Of a stretch of 64,000 nt of DNA, positions 430 through 58,849 are shown piece after piece. Every line of letters begins with the position of its first letter. Within the stretch, counting starts at the first letter, position 1. Where the stretch lies: positions 13,020,001-13,084,000 of the forward strand of contig OX597831.1 in assembly GCA_951406725.2 (NCBI GenBank), given 5' to 3'. Made by a program: the position numbers and the translations under genes. Origin of the DNA: Octopus vulgaris. Lineage: Eukaryota. Under the pieces are notes generated by a model. It searched no databases, was not told the origin of the DNA, and was given only the letters and a program-made list of their open reading frames with translations.

Positions 430-911
430 TTAGTCGTCATGTTGTGTGGTGTGGTGGTGGGTTTTATTGTTCCATTCGTGTTTCCTGTTGAGGCTCGATA
501 TGTCTATTGCTATGTGTGTAGTTCCTGTGATCTAAGTGTTGTTTTAGTTCGATGCGTTGATAATACTTTGACCTCTATGCTATTGACTGAGCCTCTACGT
601 TCTGCTTGAGCATGTTGATAGAGCACTGACGAACCTTTCTCTTCTTTGAGCTCTCGCCAGTCTTCACCTATGCGTTCTCTTATGTTGCGCGCTGTCTCGC
701 CAAGGTGAGCAATTGTTATGCTTCTGCACCGTCCCTCAGTACATCGTAAGTTATACACTATATTCCTAACCATACAGTTAACCTGTGGCTTTATCCTACA
801 TACAATACAATTATTCTCCGTACACAGGGACCCATCGAAGGGATAAGTTCTACAAATCAGGGATTTTATAGTGACACCAGGCCTTTCTACCACTTTAATA
901 CGTAGATTGGC

Positions 912-912
<1 letters not shown>
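430..912 (-). pseudogene. PLE GIY-YIG endonuclease fragment with Cys-rich linker, frameshifted
   Basis: KANLRIKVVERPG..C-x4-C-x2-C..NIVYNLRC..C..HLGETARNIRERIGEDW..VLYQH. After a frameshift near 525 it continues ..THIAIDISSLNRKHEW..*. Homologous to 46943-47221. Confidence 0.85.
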
Positions 913-942
<30 letters not shown>

Positions 943-954
<12 letters not shown>

Positions 955-1221
955 GAAATGAGGTACTCAGAAGATCGGATGGTTTATATTTACAGATATT
1001 TATTTGTATATTACATTTTTTATATATATCATATCACTTAGATCATTAGCGCTTTCTGCCATTCTAGTGGGGTTTTCAAATCAAATGAAAACCCCACTAG
1101 AATGGCAGAAAGCGCTAATGATCTAAGTGATATGATATATATAAAAAATGTAATATACAAATAAATATCTGTAAATATAAACCATCCGATCTTCTGAGTA
1201 CCTCATTTCTTCTAATATATA
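943..1221. repeat. Perfect fold-back inverted repeat, ~135-bp arms, 7-nt spacer
   Basis: ~943-1078 is the reverse complement of 1086-~1221 with spacer AATCAAA. I found no mismatch. The outer ends merge into TA repeats. Confidence 0.95.
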
Positions 1222-21102: not shown

Positions 21103-21999
21103 CGAGGGAGTGACACAAAGAAACCGGAATTTTGCAATATTATTTTATTCACTTAGTTTTACATGTTTACACTTTTATCGCCTTCAAAATATTTTCCATT
21201 CGAAGCAATGTATCGGTCCAGGCGCGTTTTCCATTGTTCGAAGCAATGCTGGAACTTTTGCGAAGTGATGCCTTTTAACGCATCCATCATTTTATTCTTC
21301 ACCTTTTCCACGTCTGCAAATTTCGTAGCACCAGCTTTCGGAACCAGTAATGACATTCAAGTAAAGATCCGGATCAATTTCCACCTTTTCTTTCAGTTCA
21401 CGACACGCATTCAGCCGTGACTGTTTCTGATCTTCCGTGACCAAGTGAGGTACAAATTTTGTTGCAACTCTTTTCAGTCGCAATTCTTCGCTCAAAATTC
21501 GTTGGCAGGAGCTCCAGGACACACCAATCATATCAACAAGTTCGTCAGTTGTTTGGTGATGGTTCTCCAAGATCAGTTCATGAATTTTCGTGATGCTTTC
21601 ATTCGTTTGGGAGATCGACGGTCGTCCTGCACGAAGTTGGTCTCCAAGCCACAAGTGACCATTCCTAAAGCTTGAAAACCACTCATAAACTTGTGTTTTG
21701 CTCATGGCATCGTCCTTGTAAGCTGTTTGAAACACGACAACTATTTTGGCTGCCGTTTTCCCCGGCAGAAAACAATTTCACGAAAGCAAGCTGTTCCTTC
21801 GTTTTACATCGCAAAAATCGAAGAGGAACGGAGCTCTGCAGAACAAAGACGCACGACGTGGCAGTAGGACGCCAGAGGACGACACCGGTCGGCAGACTGA
21901 TCCGTGAGAGTCACATCAAGTGGACTCTAGCGGCAGAAGCCTGAACAACTTCGGTTTTATCCTACTGAGAACGTTTCCGGTTAGTTTTGGGTACCCTCG
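21103..21999 (-). mobile_element. Mariner transposon, internally deleted transposase pseudogene
   Basis: ORF 21292-21735 MSKTQVYEWF..GRP..KFVPHL..VITGSESWCY (HTH, WVPHxL-like, first D motif) and C-terminus ..CFEQWKTRLDRYIASNGKYFEGD. TIRs TA|CGAGGG.. / ..ACCCTCG. Confidence 0.9.
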
Positions 22000-24206: not shown

Positions 24207-24770
24207 CGAGGTATACTTAAAAAGTATACGACCTTGAATGATTTTGCCCAAAATGATAACACATGAGCAAAATCTGCATGGGTATTAGGCGGCTGCATCC
24301 TTTCTGAGCATGCGCAAAATGTTTCGTGTTTGTGGGTTGTGCCATTTACCCACAGAGGCATGTAGAATACAGACATGAAGAGTGTGCTGTGCAGTTTTTC
24401 TTTTTGCGACAAGCTGACCGAGTTCATTGAGCAATAATACCGTACCAAATTCTGCCAAAAACTTGGTGATACGCAAGCCCAGACTATCGAGAAATTTCAG
24501 AAGGCCTTTGGAGAAGTTGCTATGGGAAAAACAGAAATAAAGGAGTGGTACAACCGGTTCAAAGACGGCTGCAGCACAGTATACAGGGAATCACGTTGTG
24601 GTGGACCATCGACTTGCAGAAACGAAGAAATGATTACAATTATTATTCGTCGGCTTCGTGAAGCTGAGCGGCGAAAACGAACTGACCTGTGGGTAGCAGA
24701 GTACTGGCAACTCCAATGTGACTACGTTGTCCAAGCATTCCTCGTTAGGCTTTCGACTCCCCAGACGTGT
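24207..24770 (+). mobile_element. Mariner remnant (left TIR, N-terminal HTH, deleted core)
   Basis: TA|CGAGGTATACTTAAAAAGT; translation EQ*YRTKFCQKLGDTQAQTIEKFQKAFGEVAMGKTEIKEWYNRFKDG..GGPSTCRN. Confidence 0.8.
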
Positions 24771-24947
24771 ATACGGATATATATATATATATATATACTT
24801 CAAGAATTGTGCATAGTATTGAATAACTTCATGCTTGGAGAAGAAGAGCATGCACACACGAACTCACACATGCGCTTAGTACTTGCATACACATTCATAC
24901 ATACATGCATAGATGTAAACATGCATAGGCACACACACACATATACA

Positions 24948-24979
<32 letters not shown>

Positions 24980-25855
24980 GTTGTATATTTATGTTCATAT
25001 ATGATAACCATAGAAAGTTGATAACGACGACGAAGAAGATGATGATGAAAAGATGATGATGAAAAGGATGATGATGATGATGAGGAGGAGGAGGAGGAGA
25101 GGGAGGGCAACGACGACGACGACAACGGCGACGCTAACGATAACAATGACGATAACAATAGCGATGAAGATGATGTTAATGACGGCAACGATGACGAAGA
25201 TGAAGATGATGAAGCAGGTGATGATGATGATGATGATGGTGTTTTTCTTTTCTAAGGATTCGTCTAGGGACTCGATTTTCTCGCCACTGCGATCCTCCTG
25301 CGAAACAGTTGGGTGAACCTTGAGACGAAGTACAAACTCTCAACCTCAGTTTCATATAGAACCATATCCTCTACATCATGTATTGAGCACTCGTTTCTCA
25401 TTCGTTCGATAAAAACAATGTAAGTATTCATATACATACATACACACATACATACATACATTCATAGATACACACATGCATAGATACACACATACATACA
25501 TACATGCATACATACACACATGCATACATACATACATACATACATACATACATACATACACACATGCATACATACATACATACATACATACATACATACA
25601 TGTGATACCATATACCCCTTCCTGATCAATAGCAGCTCATCTTCCAGAAGCCATCTCGGACCTCTTCACCCTGGGTCTCTTCATTTATCTGGTCATTGCA
25701 GAAGCCTGAAGGAGACGGGCTCGAAGTACTACGGAATCCGAATCAATTTTTTTAAACACACACACACACACATTGGAATATATAGGTATGAATATATATT
25801 ATCAGTATGATCAGCAAATATTGAAATGTGTCGGACAAATGGTCAATATGATATA

Positions 25856-37435: not shown

Positions 37436-37476
37436 CTGTGCTGATGACGCCTATTGAGACAGAAACGTGTCCACAG
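37436..37476 (+). ncRNA. Minimal type I hammerhead ribozyme, intact core
   Basis: CTGTG-CTGATGA-CGCCTATTGAGACA-GAAAC-GT-GTC-CACAG; perfect 5-bp stem I, GUC triplet, weak stem II. Confidence 0.8.
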
Positions 37477-45381: not shown

Positions 45382-45612
45382 GGTGGCGAGCTGGCAGAAA
45401 CGTTAGCACGCCGGGCGAAATGCTTAGCGGTATTTCGTCTGTCGTTACGTTCTGAGTTCTAATTCCGCCGAGGTCGACTTTGCCTTTCATCCTTTCGGAG
45501 TCGATAGATAAAGTACCAGTTTCGCACTGGGGTCGATGTAATCGACTTAATCCGTTTGTCTGTCCCTGTTTGTTCCCTCTATGTTTAGCCCCTTGTGGGC
45601 AATGAAGAAATA

Positions 45613-45613
<1 letters not shown>
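45382..45613 (+). mobile_element. SINE family A, young full-length copy (long-tail form)
   Basis: GGTGGCGAGCTGGCAGAAACGTTAGCACGCCGGGCGAAATGCTTAGCGG..GAGTTCTAATTCC..core..AGCCCCTTGTGGGCAATGAAGAAATAG. Confidence 0.92.
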
Positions 45614-45649
<36 letters not shown>

Positions 45650-45724
45650 GTATGTATAATTTTTTTTCGTAATGAGATAAAAAGACCAAGGCTGTGTAGA
45701 TTTTAGAACATTTATAAATAGAAG

Positions 45725-45772
45725 GTCTTACAGCTGTTTCCAGGATATTTATTAAATCCCTTCATCGGAGAC
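45725..45772 (-). ncRNA. Type I hammerhead ribozyme (U4->C variant)
   Basis: GTCT-CCGATGA-A-GGGAT-TTAATAAAT-ATCCT-G-GAAAC-AGCT-GTA-AGAC; palindromic stem III. Confidence 0.75.
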
Positions 45773-46067
45773 GGTGCAAGAGGATGATTAAGTCATAATT
45801 TAGATGTGATACAAAATGGAGAGTGAGGTGGAGGAATGAAAATAGATGTGAGATATGCAGAGATATTGTATTTGTAGATCCATTATTTAGGCAGAATGGT
45901 ATACATATAAGATTCCAATACCTTATGAGTAAAATCCAATAAATGACCTATTTTGAACCCTTTTTCGCATAATCACCGAACCTGGAACTTAACTATGGTC
46001 TATCCATACCACTTATTCAGCATTACCTGACACCTTTGGGTCTCACTGACACCATTACCTCTCATAA

Positions 46068-46114
<47 letters not shown>

Positions 46115-46433
46115 GTCTGTCTAAATCTTTTAAAATTGCATTTTCAAACCTACTTTCATATATATATATAATCATTAATTAATAAATCTTAGGGTAGCAA
46201 AAAAAAAATTTAGAAAAATTCTTTGCTACCAGAGGTCTAGCGTGAAGGAAAAATTAGTCAAAAATTAGGCCTTTCACGATAGCCTTAAAGGCATACATAC
46301 ATACATATATATATTTTATATATTTCGGAATGGTCATTTTGCCAGTTTAGCCAATAAAAACACACGCACTATATATTTGGTGTTATTTTGCTTCAGTGTT
46401 ATTTATTTTTTACATTAATCTTAATCTTATTTC

Positions 46434-46477
46434 GGCCAGAGTTCTTTCGTCACACTCCTGTGACCGCATCAGTGGTC
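46434..46477 (-). ncRNA. Hammerhead-like motif with CUGAUGC core (mirror copy at 47341-47384, + strand, CUGGUGC)
   Basis: GACCA-CTGATGC-G-GTCACA-GGAG-TGTGAC-GAAAG-AA-CTC-TGGCC. Confidence 0.7.
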
Positions 46478-46822
46478 CTTTGTTTTCTTCTTTCTTACTT
46501 GTGTCTCTCCTTACTAACCGTCAGCCATTTTGTATTTCTATTGTATGTCTTCATTTGCGCATGCTTATATCTCTATGTGCGTTTATGTTTATTTAGTGTG
46601 TGTATGTGGGGGGATGCCTGTAATATTTGTATCTTCTGTTTATATATGTTCATGTAATTTGTAATTTTATATGTTCATGTAATTTGTATTTTGTTTTTGT
46701 TGTTTTTGTTTATTCTTATTTAGTTCATGTGTTTACATCCACTTATTATTATCATTACATATGCTTGTATGTATGTATGTATAACAACAATGCTAGTAAT
46801 AACAATAATAAATTGAATCGAA

Positions 46823-46855
<33 letters not shown>

Positions 46856-46942
46856 ATATATATATACATATATATATATAGTTATTTATTTCTATTAGTT
46901 TATTTATCTGTGTATTTATTATGTTTTCAGGATCCTCTATCG

Positions 46943-47221
46943 TCATATGTTGTGGTGTGTGTTAGTGCTCCATTTTAGTTTTCTATTCAGGCTAGGTATA
47001 TTTTCTATTATGTGTGTAGCTTCTGTAATTTGTCTAATTGTTGCATCTAATCTATGTGTGGATAATATTTTAATTTCTATGTTACTGATTGACCCCCCTC
47101 CGTGTTCTTGTTCGGCGTGTTGGTACAGAATCGATGAGCTTTTACCTTCCTTGAGTTGTCTCCAATGCTCATTTACCCGCTCTCCTATGCTTCTTGCCGT
47201 TTCCCCTGCGTATGTCGTTGT
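46943..47221 (-). pseudogene. PLE GIY-YIG endonuclease C-terminal fragment (open frame, no start; absent from the ORF track)
   Basis: Manual translation TTTYAGETARSIGERVNEHWRQLKEGKSSSILYQHAEQEHGGGSISNIEIKILSTHRLDATIRQITEATHIIENIPSLNRKLKWSTNTHHNI* retains YxGET, R, EH, H, E and P.LN motifs. Confidence 0.9.
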
Positions 47222-47559
47222 CTAAATAAACATAAACGCACATAGAGATATAAGCATGCGCAAATGAAGACATACAATAGAAATACAAAATGGCTGACGG
47301 TTAGTAAGGAGAGACACAAATAAGAAAGAAGAAAACAAAGGACCACTGGTGCGGTCACAGGAGTGTGACGAAAGAACTCTGGCCGAAATATGATTAAGAT
47401 TAATGTAAAAAATAAATAACACTGAAGCAAAATAACACCAAATATATAGTGCGTGTGTTTTTATTGGCTAAACTGGCAAAATGACCATTCCGAAATATAA
47501 CAATATCTGTTTCAACACACGACTTCACATAAAAAATCTTGCACAACAAATATTTAAAC

Positions 47560-47604
<45 letters not shown>

Positions 47605-47608
<4 letters not shown>

Positions 47609-48012
47609 TCAATTTAGGTAGCAAAAAATTCAATAGAAATTTATCGCTACCAGCGGCCTAGTGGAAAAGAGAAAATAGTCAAAGACTAAATATATAAATA
47701 TAACAATTTAGGAGTACCTAACAGGCCATTCGTCCACCAGAAAGAGCAGCCATAACTCACACCGCCAAGTAGTAGTAATTCAGAAATTAGGTGAAAATTT
47801 AAAAACATTTACCCTAATTCATCTTTTAGACGATGCATCGTTTCTGTGTTATTAATGATTAAATTAGCTTAATTAAATTAAATTAAGCCAATCTACCATA
47901 GGTCACACTTCATCAGTAAAACCTGGGAGAGACAAATATACACGAGGCATCTGTATCGATGCCTCCGGAATATCTGTCTTAAAATTTTCCTGTTAAGGTC
48001 ACTCCTAAATTG

Positions 48013-48020
<8 letters not shown>
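47605..48020 (-). mobile_element. Non-coding hammerhead-bearing cassette between (TA)n runs with short inverted ends
   Basis: ATATAACAATTTAGGAGT-ACCT-AACAGG (~47698-47725) versus CCTGTTAAGGTCACTCCTAAATTGTTATAT (~47989-48018). Left terminus shared with 5465-5592 and 46189-46265. Confidence 0.7.
47824..47921 (-). ncRNA. Type I hammerhead ribozyme, intact core, ~60-nt stem II
   Basis: TTTTA-CTGATGA-A-GTGT..GATTGGCTTAATT/AATTAAGCTAATT..ACAC-A-GAAAC-GATGCATC-GTC-TAAAA. Confidence 0.85.
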
Positions 48021-48074
<54 letters not shown>

Positions 48075-48525
48075 GTCTATGTATGTATGTATATGTCTAT
48101 ATATGTATGTATGTAAATGTATACCTACGGCACATACACATGTGGATATGTTTATGAAGTGCCAGTGACAATATCAACAGACGTTATTCACCTGGAAGTT
48201 TGTCATCAGATCCTGAAATGTGTGGGTGTCTTTATTTAATTAACGATTCTATACAAACATTCGCGTGCACACACACACACTCACACACATACACATACAC
48301 ACACGCACACACACACATGGACACACGTTCGTACATACATACATTTGGTGGTGTAGGAGTTGTAATACATTTAGAAATGGACTTGTATATAATTTTAAAC
48401 ACACAATCATAGACATTTATACACCCACACAGAATGTTCAGCAATACAAAGACGCCAATCTCATTTATTCTTAAATGTAATTAAAAACTCACAGGAATAA
48501 ACACACACAAACAGAGATACACACG

Positions 48526-53144: not shown

Positions 53145-53573
53145 TACTAATATAGGATGAAGTTCTTTTACAGAAAAAATTTCATCAAAAAAGTGGCAGC
53201 ATATTAAAATACATTTAAAGGTTAAAATTATAAACAACTTATAAACAAGGGCAAAAGAAAATTATTTCTATGCCAATATGCTGATAACAGACTTTTAAAT
53301 CGTTAGTTTCCACATAGTATTATACCCACTACAGAAATGCGTTGTGCTGAAATCGAGGAAAGCTAGCCAACAGGATCTTTTTAAAAAGTTCGTTATTTCT
53401 ATATTGAATCAATTTCGGAATTAATCTCATAATAGATCTTTTTCCTCTTCAGTAGAAAATACGAATAGAAATAAATGAAATAATTACATGCGCCCATGGA
53501 AAAAAAAAGCTGAAGCAAAAGTCATGAGTACATATAAGTACCCCAGATATATACACAACTTACAAACCCTTGT

Positions 53574-58227: not shown

Positions 58228-58413
58228 CTTTATAAAAATAGGGTAAAGAAAAATAATTTACTTTACTACACACCGAACTTTTTAGAAATAGCAGCCAAAA
58301 ATTTGTCTATTTCTTCTACTGCAAGAAAAAGTCTCCCAGACAATGCATACTCAGAAATAACTCACATAGGTATAAGGGAAAAACAACGAAAGATCACATC
58401 CATATGAGATCGC

Positions 58414-58475
58414 CCGAGGACAAGCCTGTTTCTGGATTAGTTGACTAAACGCCAACATTTCCTTCATCAGCTCAG
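58414..58475 (-). ncRNA. Type I hammerhead ribozyme, intact core
   Basis: CTGAG-CTGATGA-A-GGA-AAT-GTTGGC-GTTTA-GTCAAC-TAA-TCC-A-GAAAC-AGGCTT-GTC-CTCGG; all three stems formable, GUC triplet. Confidence 0.85.
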
Positions 58476-58849
58476 AGATTTCTTCTGATTTGGATTTGAA
58501 AGTACTAAAAATCAAACATACCCGTCCGATATGGGTAACACCGGACAAATCATGCCAGACCACCAGTACCAGCGAATCCAAAAATACAAATGAGATCTAG
58601 TATTCTCCCTGTCCACCCACGTGAGTCACAGAGTAGTGCATTCCTACAGAGGCAAAACTGTAGTTAAAGTAATATTTCAAATATATCGTAAATGGTCGTT
58701 TTACATACCGAACACTGCTCGGTCGAATTAATTAATAATTAATTAATTTTACCCTTTTTTATTGTATATATATATATATATATATAGGTATGCATAAACA
58801 TAGATGTACTTACGTATGCATATATATATATATATATATACTCACGTAT

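What the first reader, a model, noticed from the sequence alone, without database searches (positions are those of the whole stretch)
47605..48020. ORF-less ~400-bp cassette: TA run, hairpin terminus, inverted ends and an intact long-stem-II hammerhead
This is the best candidate for a complete non-autonomous unit. It has an intact CUGAUGA/GAAAC/GUC core, a 5-bp stem I, a self-complementary ACGAUGCAUCGU stem III and a ~60-nt AU-rich stem II. The A-stem II-A flanking pattern is shared with 58414-58475 and is similar at 45725-45772, suggesting a lineage-specific variant with extra unpaired bases at the stem II junction.
Basis: partly seen in the sequence, partly recalled or inferred. Interest (0 to 1): 0.7.

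Follow-up and report, generated by a model that had tools for sequence, protein, structure and literature searches.

The report
Truncated two-armed hammerhead retrozyme copy
This is a shortened copy of a young, protein-free jumping repeat that carries a predicted self-cutting RNA; the kind is known, but its many copies end at two fixed points in a way that suggests a Penelope-type enzyme likely writes them from both strands of a DNA cut, and its ribozyme has an extra A-A step that also turns up in phage DNA.

Summary
The hammerhead is real (minus strand, 47824-47921), with compensatory changes in stems I and III among relatives. The cassette is not a complete unit. It is a 386-nt arm plus a ~30-nt inverted arm of a 473/474-nt ORF-less monomer (242 exact hammerhead hits genome-wide) and lacks 82 nt and a second hammerhead. 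Outer ends are constant: of 46 two-armed insertions, 40 pair end E1 with end E2, nearly always on (TA)n; inner junctions are random. A young autonomous Penelope-like element, with a fragment next door, shows the same footprint, but no sequence link to it was found. Both arms share rare variants, which points to one, probably circular, RNA template (inferred). The A-stem II-A junction is real and common in this genome, but a homologous sister family lacks it and phage contigs have it, so it is not lineage-specific. This copy's stem I is weakened. Cleavage and circular RNA are untested. Verdict: new member of the animal non-LTR retrozymes. The scan has already reported the same two-armed footprint for other repeat families of this genome, not for this sequence.

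The parts
47561..47605 (.). (TA)n target, shared with the E2-type end of the neighbouring autonomous Penelope-like fragment
47604..47989 (-). Long arm: monomer positions 311 to 228 (numbered from the cleavage site), 386 nt, ends at fixed 3' end E2; lacks monomer 229-310
   Evidence: 98.2% to the L004 monomer; 2 substitutions, 5 deleted bases
47617..47651 (-). Hairpin just before E2, followed by CUAAAUUG; kept in the ~70% identical sister family
47699..47731 (-). Internal (read-through) copy of the E1 signal: hairpin plus CUAAAUUG; two bases deleted in this arm but intact in the inverted arm
   Evidence: helix 5: 4 of 9 pairs change on both sides
47824..47921 (-). Type I hammerhead; predicted cut between 47829 and 47828; A...A flanking stem II; palindromic stem III
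47845..47909 (-). Stem II domain, 65 nt: A, GUGU/ACAC base, purine-purine mismatch that swaps G.A/A.G between subfamilies, long AU-rich hairpin, A
47944..47965 (-). Short GC-rich hairpin upstream of the hammerhead
47989..48018 (+). Inverted short arm: monomer positions 104 to about 133-141, ends at fixed 3' end E1; joined to the long arm by a 1-nt overlap
48014..48068 (.). (TA)n target on the right

Best explanation
The cassette is a 5'-truncated, two-armed insertion of a young 473/474-nt ORF-less hammerhead repeat (an animal non-LTR retrozyme), likely pasted into a TA microsatellite by the reverse transcriptase-endonuclease of a Penelope-like element. Shown: the monomer, its tandem and back-to-back arrays, two fixed 3' ends (E1, E2, about 90 nt apart, each behind a hairpin and CUAAAUUG), one E1 and one E2 per two-armed insertion, random inner junctions, TA targeting, arms that share rare variants, covarying hammerhead stems. 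Inferred: multimeric transcripts of intact arrays self-cleave (probably as dimers through the palindromic stem III) and are ligated to circles; the enzyme cuts both DNA strands and starts cDNA at E1 from one strand and E2 from the other on one RNA; each arm stops at random and the arms are joined by micro-homology. Here the E2 arm ran 386 nt and the E1 arm about 30 nt, so this copy cannot release a monomer by itself and is most likely a dead end. The A...A junction is most likely a tolerated purine-purine step stacked on A9.G12 (inference), not a lineage mark.
For: Tandem period 473-474; 62 full monomers in 28 of 73 loci; stops in all six frames. Ends: 40 of 46 two-armed loci E1+E2, 1 E2+E2, 0 E1+E1, 5 with one end elsewhere; 25 of 27 one-armed loci end at E1 or E2; 81 of 87 E ends of two-armed loci abut (TA)n; binomial p = 4e-11 for 40 of 41. 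92 inner ends are uniform over the monomer (p = 0.50), 3 of 92 near the cleavage site. One template: 725 of 732 subfamily-diagnostic sites agree between arms; 22 rare variants are shared by all units of an insertion, 17 across both arms; 15 of 46 insertions have more than one monomer on both arms; L048 alternates two unit types in both arms. Same footprint in a young autonomous element with a 1312-aa frame: E1+E2 in 4 of 4 loci where both ends were seen. Published Penelope traits: tandem/inverted insertions, tail at one end, TA bias (PMC8557442, passages); cleavage and extension of both strands and two internal start sites in vitro (PMC11167929, parts 1-2 of 4). Ribozyme under selection: core exact in 154 of 158 copies, stem III GAUGCAUC in 103 and GUUGCAAC in 54; 11 of 33 pairs change on both sides, 0 of 500 shuffles; monomer as circle -127.3 against -92.0 +/- 5.4 kcal/mol in 40 shuffles.
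Against: No autonomous element with a related terminal repeat was found: blastn of the monomer against L101 gave nothing better than E = 0.095 (the L102 part of that output was cut from view), and only two endonuclease queries were run on the genome. The 1312-aa frame hit no Pfam family and no solved structure; its Penelope label rests on motifs that I recognise and on its architecture. No cleavage or circular RNA was observed. Most two-sided changes come from 3 sister-family rows, so few independent events. 118 rare variants sit in only some units of an insertion, and L127 mixes 473- and 469-nt units, so later mutation, dimeric templates or unequal crossing-over also act. The 73 loci were picked by best BLAST score or an exact 26-mer (first 100 of 147 hits listed), which favours young hammerhead-bearing copies. 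The window copy's deletions lie mostly in homopolymers and may be assembly errors.
Confidence: 0.8

Rival explanations
1. Same element and enzyme, but the template is a linear multimeric transcript of a donor array, not a circle; the hammerhead may be a passenger or only trim the RNA.
For: In vitro, hammerhead mutants did not affect insertion by the anole Penelope protein and uncut RNA was the main template (PMC11167929, part 2). Inner ends ignore the cleavage site (3 of 92). Mixed unit types in L127 and L048. Only 1 of 9 frog retrozyme dimers cleaved in vitro (bioRxiv 10.64898/2026.07.22.740005, part 3).
Against: Rare variants present in every unit of both arms (17 cases, up to 9 units) need a one-unit bottleneck, which a circle gives directly; compensatory change in stem III and stem I shows selection on the ribozyme fold.
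Confidence: 0.25
2. The piece is truncated terminal-repeat debris of an autonomous Penelope-like element whose ORF-bearing master I did not find.
For: Penelope insertions are often 5'-truncated with an inverted partner (PMC8557442, passages); the driver search was limited to two protein queries.
Against: 62 perfect head-to-tail monomers without any ORF in 28 of 73 loci; among the 73 loci tblastn with the 1312-aa protein gave hits in only 4 (L001, L045, L046, L109), at positions outside the arrays mapped; every inner junction returns to monomer sequence or target DNA.
Confidence: 0.07
3. A MITE-like DNA transposon with short terminal inverted repeats inserted at TA, or a satellite spread by unequal crossing-over.
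For: The two ends share an inverted CCTAAATTG and both abut TA; satellite-type expansion was proposed for retrozymes (bioRxiv 10.64898/2026.07.22.740005, part 3).
Against: Two-armed insertions range from 232 to 4437 nt, with a random internal inversion and one-armed forms; dispersed small arrays on many contigs; polarity fixed by the ribozyme strand.
Confidence: 0.03

Closest known systems
Animal non-LTR retrozymes (Cervera and de la Pena 2020, PMC7229834, parts 2-4 of 6 read; Li, Clavereau and Pollet 2026, bioRxiv 10.64898/2026.07.22.740005, parts 1-3 of 5 read)
   Same: ORF-less tandem unit of a few hundred bases, one type I hammerhead per unit, low GC, strongly self-paired as a circle, co-existing with Penelope-like elements, solo and partial copies common.
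   Different: 473/474 nt (170-400 nt in the 2020 paper, 51-972 in the 2026 preprint); 65-nt stem II domain with an A...A junction; back-to-back arrays with two fixed 3' ends, not described in the parts I read; circles not shown here; no terminal-repeat homology to an autonomous partner found.
Penelope-like element hammerheads (Cervera and de la Pena 2014, PMC4209133, parts 1-2 of 4 read)
   Same: [quoted passage not shown]
   Different: A second extra A on the 3' side, between the G-C pair and G12; a far longer stem II; a 4-bp stem III that could also close as a monomer. Natural U.U mismatches at this position are published (PMC3088659 passage; axolotl HHR_Amex2 in PMC7229834); I found no A.A report.
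Insertion mechanism of endonuclease-bearing Penelope-like elements (anole Poseidon, PMC11167929, parts 1-2 of 4; PMC8557442, passages)
   Same: AT-rich or (TA)n target, two internal start sites giving a tail at one end, tandem plus inverted 5'-truncated structure.
   Different: The template encodes no protein; the tail is about 90 nt rather than 30-40 bp; both arms can run over several units.

Membership tests
Animal non-LTR retrozyme | Tandem units of a few hundred bases, each with a type I hammerhead | tested here: met
   Family level: 62 full monomers in 28 of 73 loci. This copy alone has one hammerhead and 391 of 473 positions, so it fails the 'active, two hammerheads' criterion of the 2026 preprint.
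Animal non-LTR retrozyme | No protein-coding frame | tested here: met
   5 to 21 stops in each of six frames of the monomer.
Animal non-LTR retrozyme | Highly self-paired circular fold | tested here: met
   Prediction only: z = -6.5, 0 of 40 shuffles, 64% paired.
Animal non-LTR retrozyme | Self-cleavage of the RNA | not testable with these tools
   Needs in vitro transcription.
Animal non-LTR retrozyme | Accumulation as circular RNA | not testable with these tools
   Only assembled contigs of runs not on record as RNA were served.
Animal non-LTR retrozyme | Homology to the terminal repeat of an autonomous Penelope-like element | tested here: inconclusive
   None to L101; only two protein queries run.
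Animal non-LTR retrozyme | Target-site duplication | tested here: inconclusive
   Masked by (TA)n flanks.
Type I hammerhead ribozyme | CUGANGA / GAAA / UH core | tested here: met
   Exact in the window and in 154 of 158 family copies.
Type I hammerhead ribozyme | Stems I, II, III with covariation | tested here: met
   Stem I 3 of 5 and stem III 2 of 4 pairs change on both sides; few independent events.
Type I hammerhead ribozyme | G10.1-C11.1 pair directly next to A9 and G12 | tested here: not met
   An A on each side intervenes in 158 of 158 matched copies (the pattern would miss copies with the A deleted).
Type I hammerhead ribozyme | Loop 1 - loop 2 tertiary contact | not tested
   No such contact was looked for; the long stem II makes the canonical geometry unlikely (inference).
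Penelope-type insertion | Tandem plus inverted 5'-truncated arms, tail at one end only, microsatellite target | tested here: met
   40 of 46 two-armed loci E1+E2; 81 of 87 ends on (TA)n.
Autonomous Penelope-like element | RT plus GIY-YIG frame | tested here: not met
   No frame in the monomer or the cassette.
MITE / DNA transposon | Constant length between two terminal inverted repeats | tested here: not met
   Lengths 232-4437 nt, random internal inversion.

The most novel reading that the evidence does not exclude
A Penelope-type enzyme copies one circular hammerhead RNA from both strands of a TA cut at two hairpin-marked start sites, giving rolling-circle arrays on both arms and occasionally fixing clustered A-to-G edits; and the ribozyme is a fast natural variant in which an A.A step extends the core, reached independently by animal retroelements and phages and missed by Rfam models.
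Probability: 0.4. Interest if true: 0.62.

Novelty: new member of a known kind. Interest (0 to 1): 0.33.

Why it matters
This locus itself is a dead-end fragment. The family matters in two modest ways. (1) Mobilisation of animal retrozymes by Penelope-like enzymes on circular templates was proposed (PMC7229834; 2026 preprint), and this family gives exact start sites, a strict one-E1-one-E2 rule and shared variants between arms, so the model can be tested in vitro with a small RNA. (2) The A...A junction occurs in hundreds of genomic copies of several unrelated families and in phage contigs and escapes Rfam, so hammerhead descriptors that demand a Watson-Crick 10.1-11.1 pair undercount these ribozymes.

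Tried and rejected
Rfam found no hammerhead in the window, in 45600-48100 at E <= 10 (only TA-repeat microRNA artefacts) or in 6 phage loci. The repeat finder on the whole window was swamped by microsatellites apart from the 278-nt inverted pair 46319-46596/47222-47499. Rolling-circle translation: rejected, stops in all frames. Driver: no homology to the young 1312-aa element; a second endonuclease query gave an older family whose longest open frame among 150 hits was 569 aa, and my hammerhead pattern matched none of its 6 loci. Pfam and PDB gave nothing for the 1312-aa frame. RNA editing as a general force: A>G 7 against T>C 5 among shared rare variants, p = 0.20; 5 of the 7 come from one locus, L032. 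Collision of one arm with the other's start site: 8 of 46 E2 arms stop near E1 (p = 0.006, window chosen after looking, one of four tests), the reverse 4 of 41 (p = 0.24): weak. Expression: no RNA holder listed on record; contigs of guessed-RNA runs hold full-length family sequence but cannot show strand, ends or circles. Whether the window's deletions are real could not be told from contigs. Lunse et al. 2016 on Penelope hammerhead variants was not held, so I could not check whether it shows the A...A form; searches for it in print found none, and figures and supplements, where such junctions are usually drawn, were not seen. A first alignment had ragged ends and was not used for pair counts; one search used 32 of 34 representatives of 78 distinct segments (L026 and L062, which begin at a junction, left out). 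The counts (352, control 6; 130, control 1; 242, control 0) come from patterns with different fixed bases and are not a fair ratio of variant to standard junctions.

Full report
Observation. The minus strand of 47824-47921 reads as a type I hammerhead: 5-bp stem I, CUGAUGA, a 65-nt stem II domain opening and closing with A, GAAAC, the palindrome GAUGCAUC, GUC. TA runs flank the cassette, a hairpin lies at 47617-47651, and the last 30 bases are an inverted copy of 47690-47725. Rfam misses it.

The family. A DNA search of the own genome gave 168 matches in 39 scored regions of 1700 candidates, many in tandem with a 473-474 period. An exact 26-mer has 147 hits and a family hammerhead pattern 242, both with 0 control hits. 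I mapped 73 non-redundant loci (39, 34 from the first 100 listed hits) on a natural monomer numbered from the predicted cut. The monomer has stops in all frames; 62 full monomers lie in 28 loci and are 92-100% identical, mean 98%.

This copy. It is a 386-nt arm (monomer 311 to 228) joined by a 1-nt overlap to an inverted arm (104 to about 133-141). Positions 229-310 are missing, and other loci and run contigs continue into them exactly where the window turns round. It has 2 substitutions and 5 deleted bases against the reference monomer; its stem I U-tract has 4 U, against 6 in 137 of 146 copies. The predicted cost of the active fold over the minimum-energy fold is 5.0 kcal/mol here, 1.6 and 0.7 in two intact copies. 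The deletions may be assembly errors. With one hammerhead it cannot release a monomer. So it is a whole insertion event but not a whole unit.

Boundaries. In ribozyme sense both outer ends are 3' ends and fall at two sites, E1 (about 133-141) and E2 (about 226-228), each after a hairpin and CUAAAUUG. Of 46 two-armed loci 40 pair E1 with E2, 1 is E2+E2, none E1+E1, 5 have one end elsewhere; 25 of 27 one-armed loci end at E1 (19) or E2 (6); 81 of 87 E ends abut (TA)n. The 92 inner ends are uniform (p = 0.50).

Penelope footprint. The window's neighbour 46310-47561 is a truncated, inverted piece of a young element whose full copies have a 1312-aa frame. [quoted passage not shown] It too has two TA-joined 3' ends, one per arm in 4 of 4 loci with both ends in view. 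Two start sites and extension of both strands were shown in vitro for the anole element (PMC11167929). The young element is a candidate driver only: no significant similarity to the monomer.

One template. Arms agree at 725 of 732 diagnostic sites; 22 rare variants are in all units of their insertion, 17 across both arms; 118 are in a subset. 15 of 46 insertions exceed one monomer on both arms. L048 alternates two unit types in both arms in the same phase, as a dimeric template would give. A one-unit bottleneck is simplest with a circle, but I saw no RNA; I put the circle step at about 0.6. One locus (L032) carries five shared A>G changes within 90 nt; overall A>G is not in excess (p = 0.20).

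Ribozyme. The core is exact in 154 of 158 copies; stem III is GAUGCAUC in 103 and GUUGCAAC in 54, a double change that keeps the palindrome. The 12-mer is predicted far more stable as an intermolecular duplex (-18.7) than as a hairpin (-1.0 kcal/mol), in line with dimer cleavage (PMC4209133). With 3 rows of a ~70% identical sister family, 11 of 33 pairs change on both sides, in stem I, upper stem II, stem III and the E1 hairpin (0 of 500 shuffles; few independent events).

The A...A junction. Both As are present in 158 of 158 matched copies. A pattern for shorter stems II has 352 hits against 6 controls, from several unrelated families with different stem II pairs, among them the family of 58413-58476 (period 562 in L133); 24 of 30 fetched loci pass a stem test. 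The family of 45725-45772 has A...G in 11 and A...A in 2 of 13 motifs matched in 20 loci. Against lineage specificity: the homologous sister family has one extra U on the 5' side only, or no extra base; 5'-only junctions have 130 hits in this genome; and 6 of 120 viral-contig hits are full type I hammerheads with A...A, five of them with 8-9-bp covarying stems II, with 10 stretches in a tighter scan. The 5' extra base is a published Penelope trait (PMC4209133) and U.U at 10.1-11.1 is published (PMC3088659, PMC7229834). I found no A.A report but could not read Lunse et al. 2016 or any figures. That A.A and A.G form a sheared-type pair is my inference from recalled RNA structure rules.

Verdict. 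A truncated copy of a new family of a known kind. Earlier notes of this scan report the same two-armed footprint for other repeat families in this genome and none for this sequence or for the junction variant; they name the host as a cephalopod, which I did not test. One of them gave me the lead to test shared variants and edits.

Noticed in passing
window 46310-47561; L101, L102: Truncated, inverted two-armed piece of a young autonomous Penelope-like element (1312-aa frame in full copies). Its hammerhead-like motif reads CUGAUGCG with a CUU or CUC site in the young family, while older relatives read CUGAAGAG, so the active family seems to have changed a core base.
   Followed up: partly
window 510-983 (-): GIY-YIG-like fragment of an older relative of that element; used as the query that found the young family.
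   Followed up: partly
window 58413-58476 (-); L131-L160: Member of a second young ORF-less hammerhead family (period about 560-562) with the A...A junction, tandem and back-to-back copies and TA-joined ends.
   Followed up: partly
window 45725-45772 (-); L415-L434: Third family with CCGAUGA core, A...G or A...A junction and GUA site; no frame similar to the 1312-aa protein next to it.
   Followed up: partly
window 46165-46295 (-); L436-L454: E2-type end of an older sister family, about 70% identical and collinear with the monomer, with another stem II junction.
   Followed up: yes
L179, L190, L199, L220, L278, L286, L455-L464 (viral contigs): Intergenic type I hammerheads in phage contigs with the same A-stem II-A junction and covarying stems; not detected by Rfam.
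   Followed up: partly
L032 (monomer positions 144-233): Five A>G changes shared by all units, four of them across both arms: looks like a template edited before copying.
   Followed up: partly
L048 and L127: Arrays with two unit types: strict alternation at one site in both arms of L048; 473- and 469-nt units mixed in L127.
   Followed up: partly
window 37436-37476 (+) and 53396-53458 (-): Two further hammerhead-like matches, the first with a clean core but weak stem II, the second doubtful.
   Followed up: no
window 21292-21777 (-) and 24438-25004 (+): Frames that look like mariner-type transposase fragments; label from memory, no search run.
   Followed up: no
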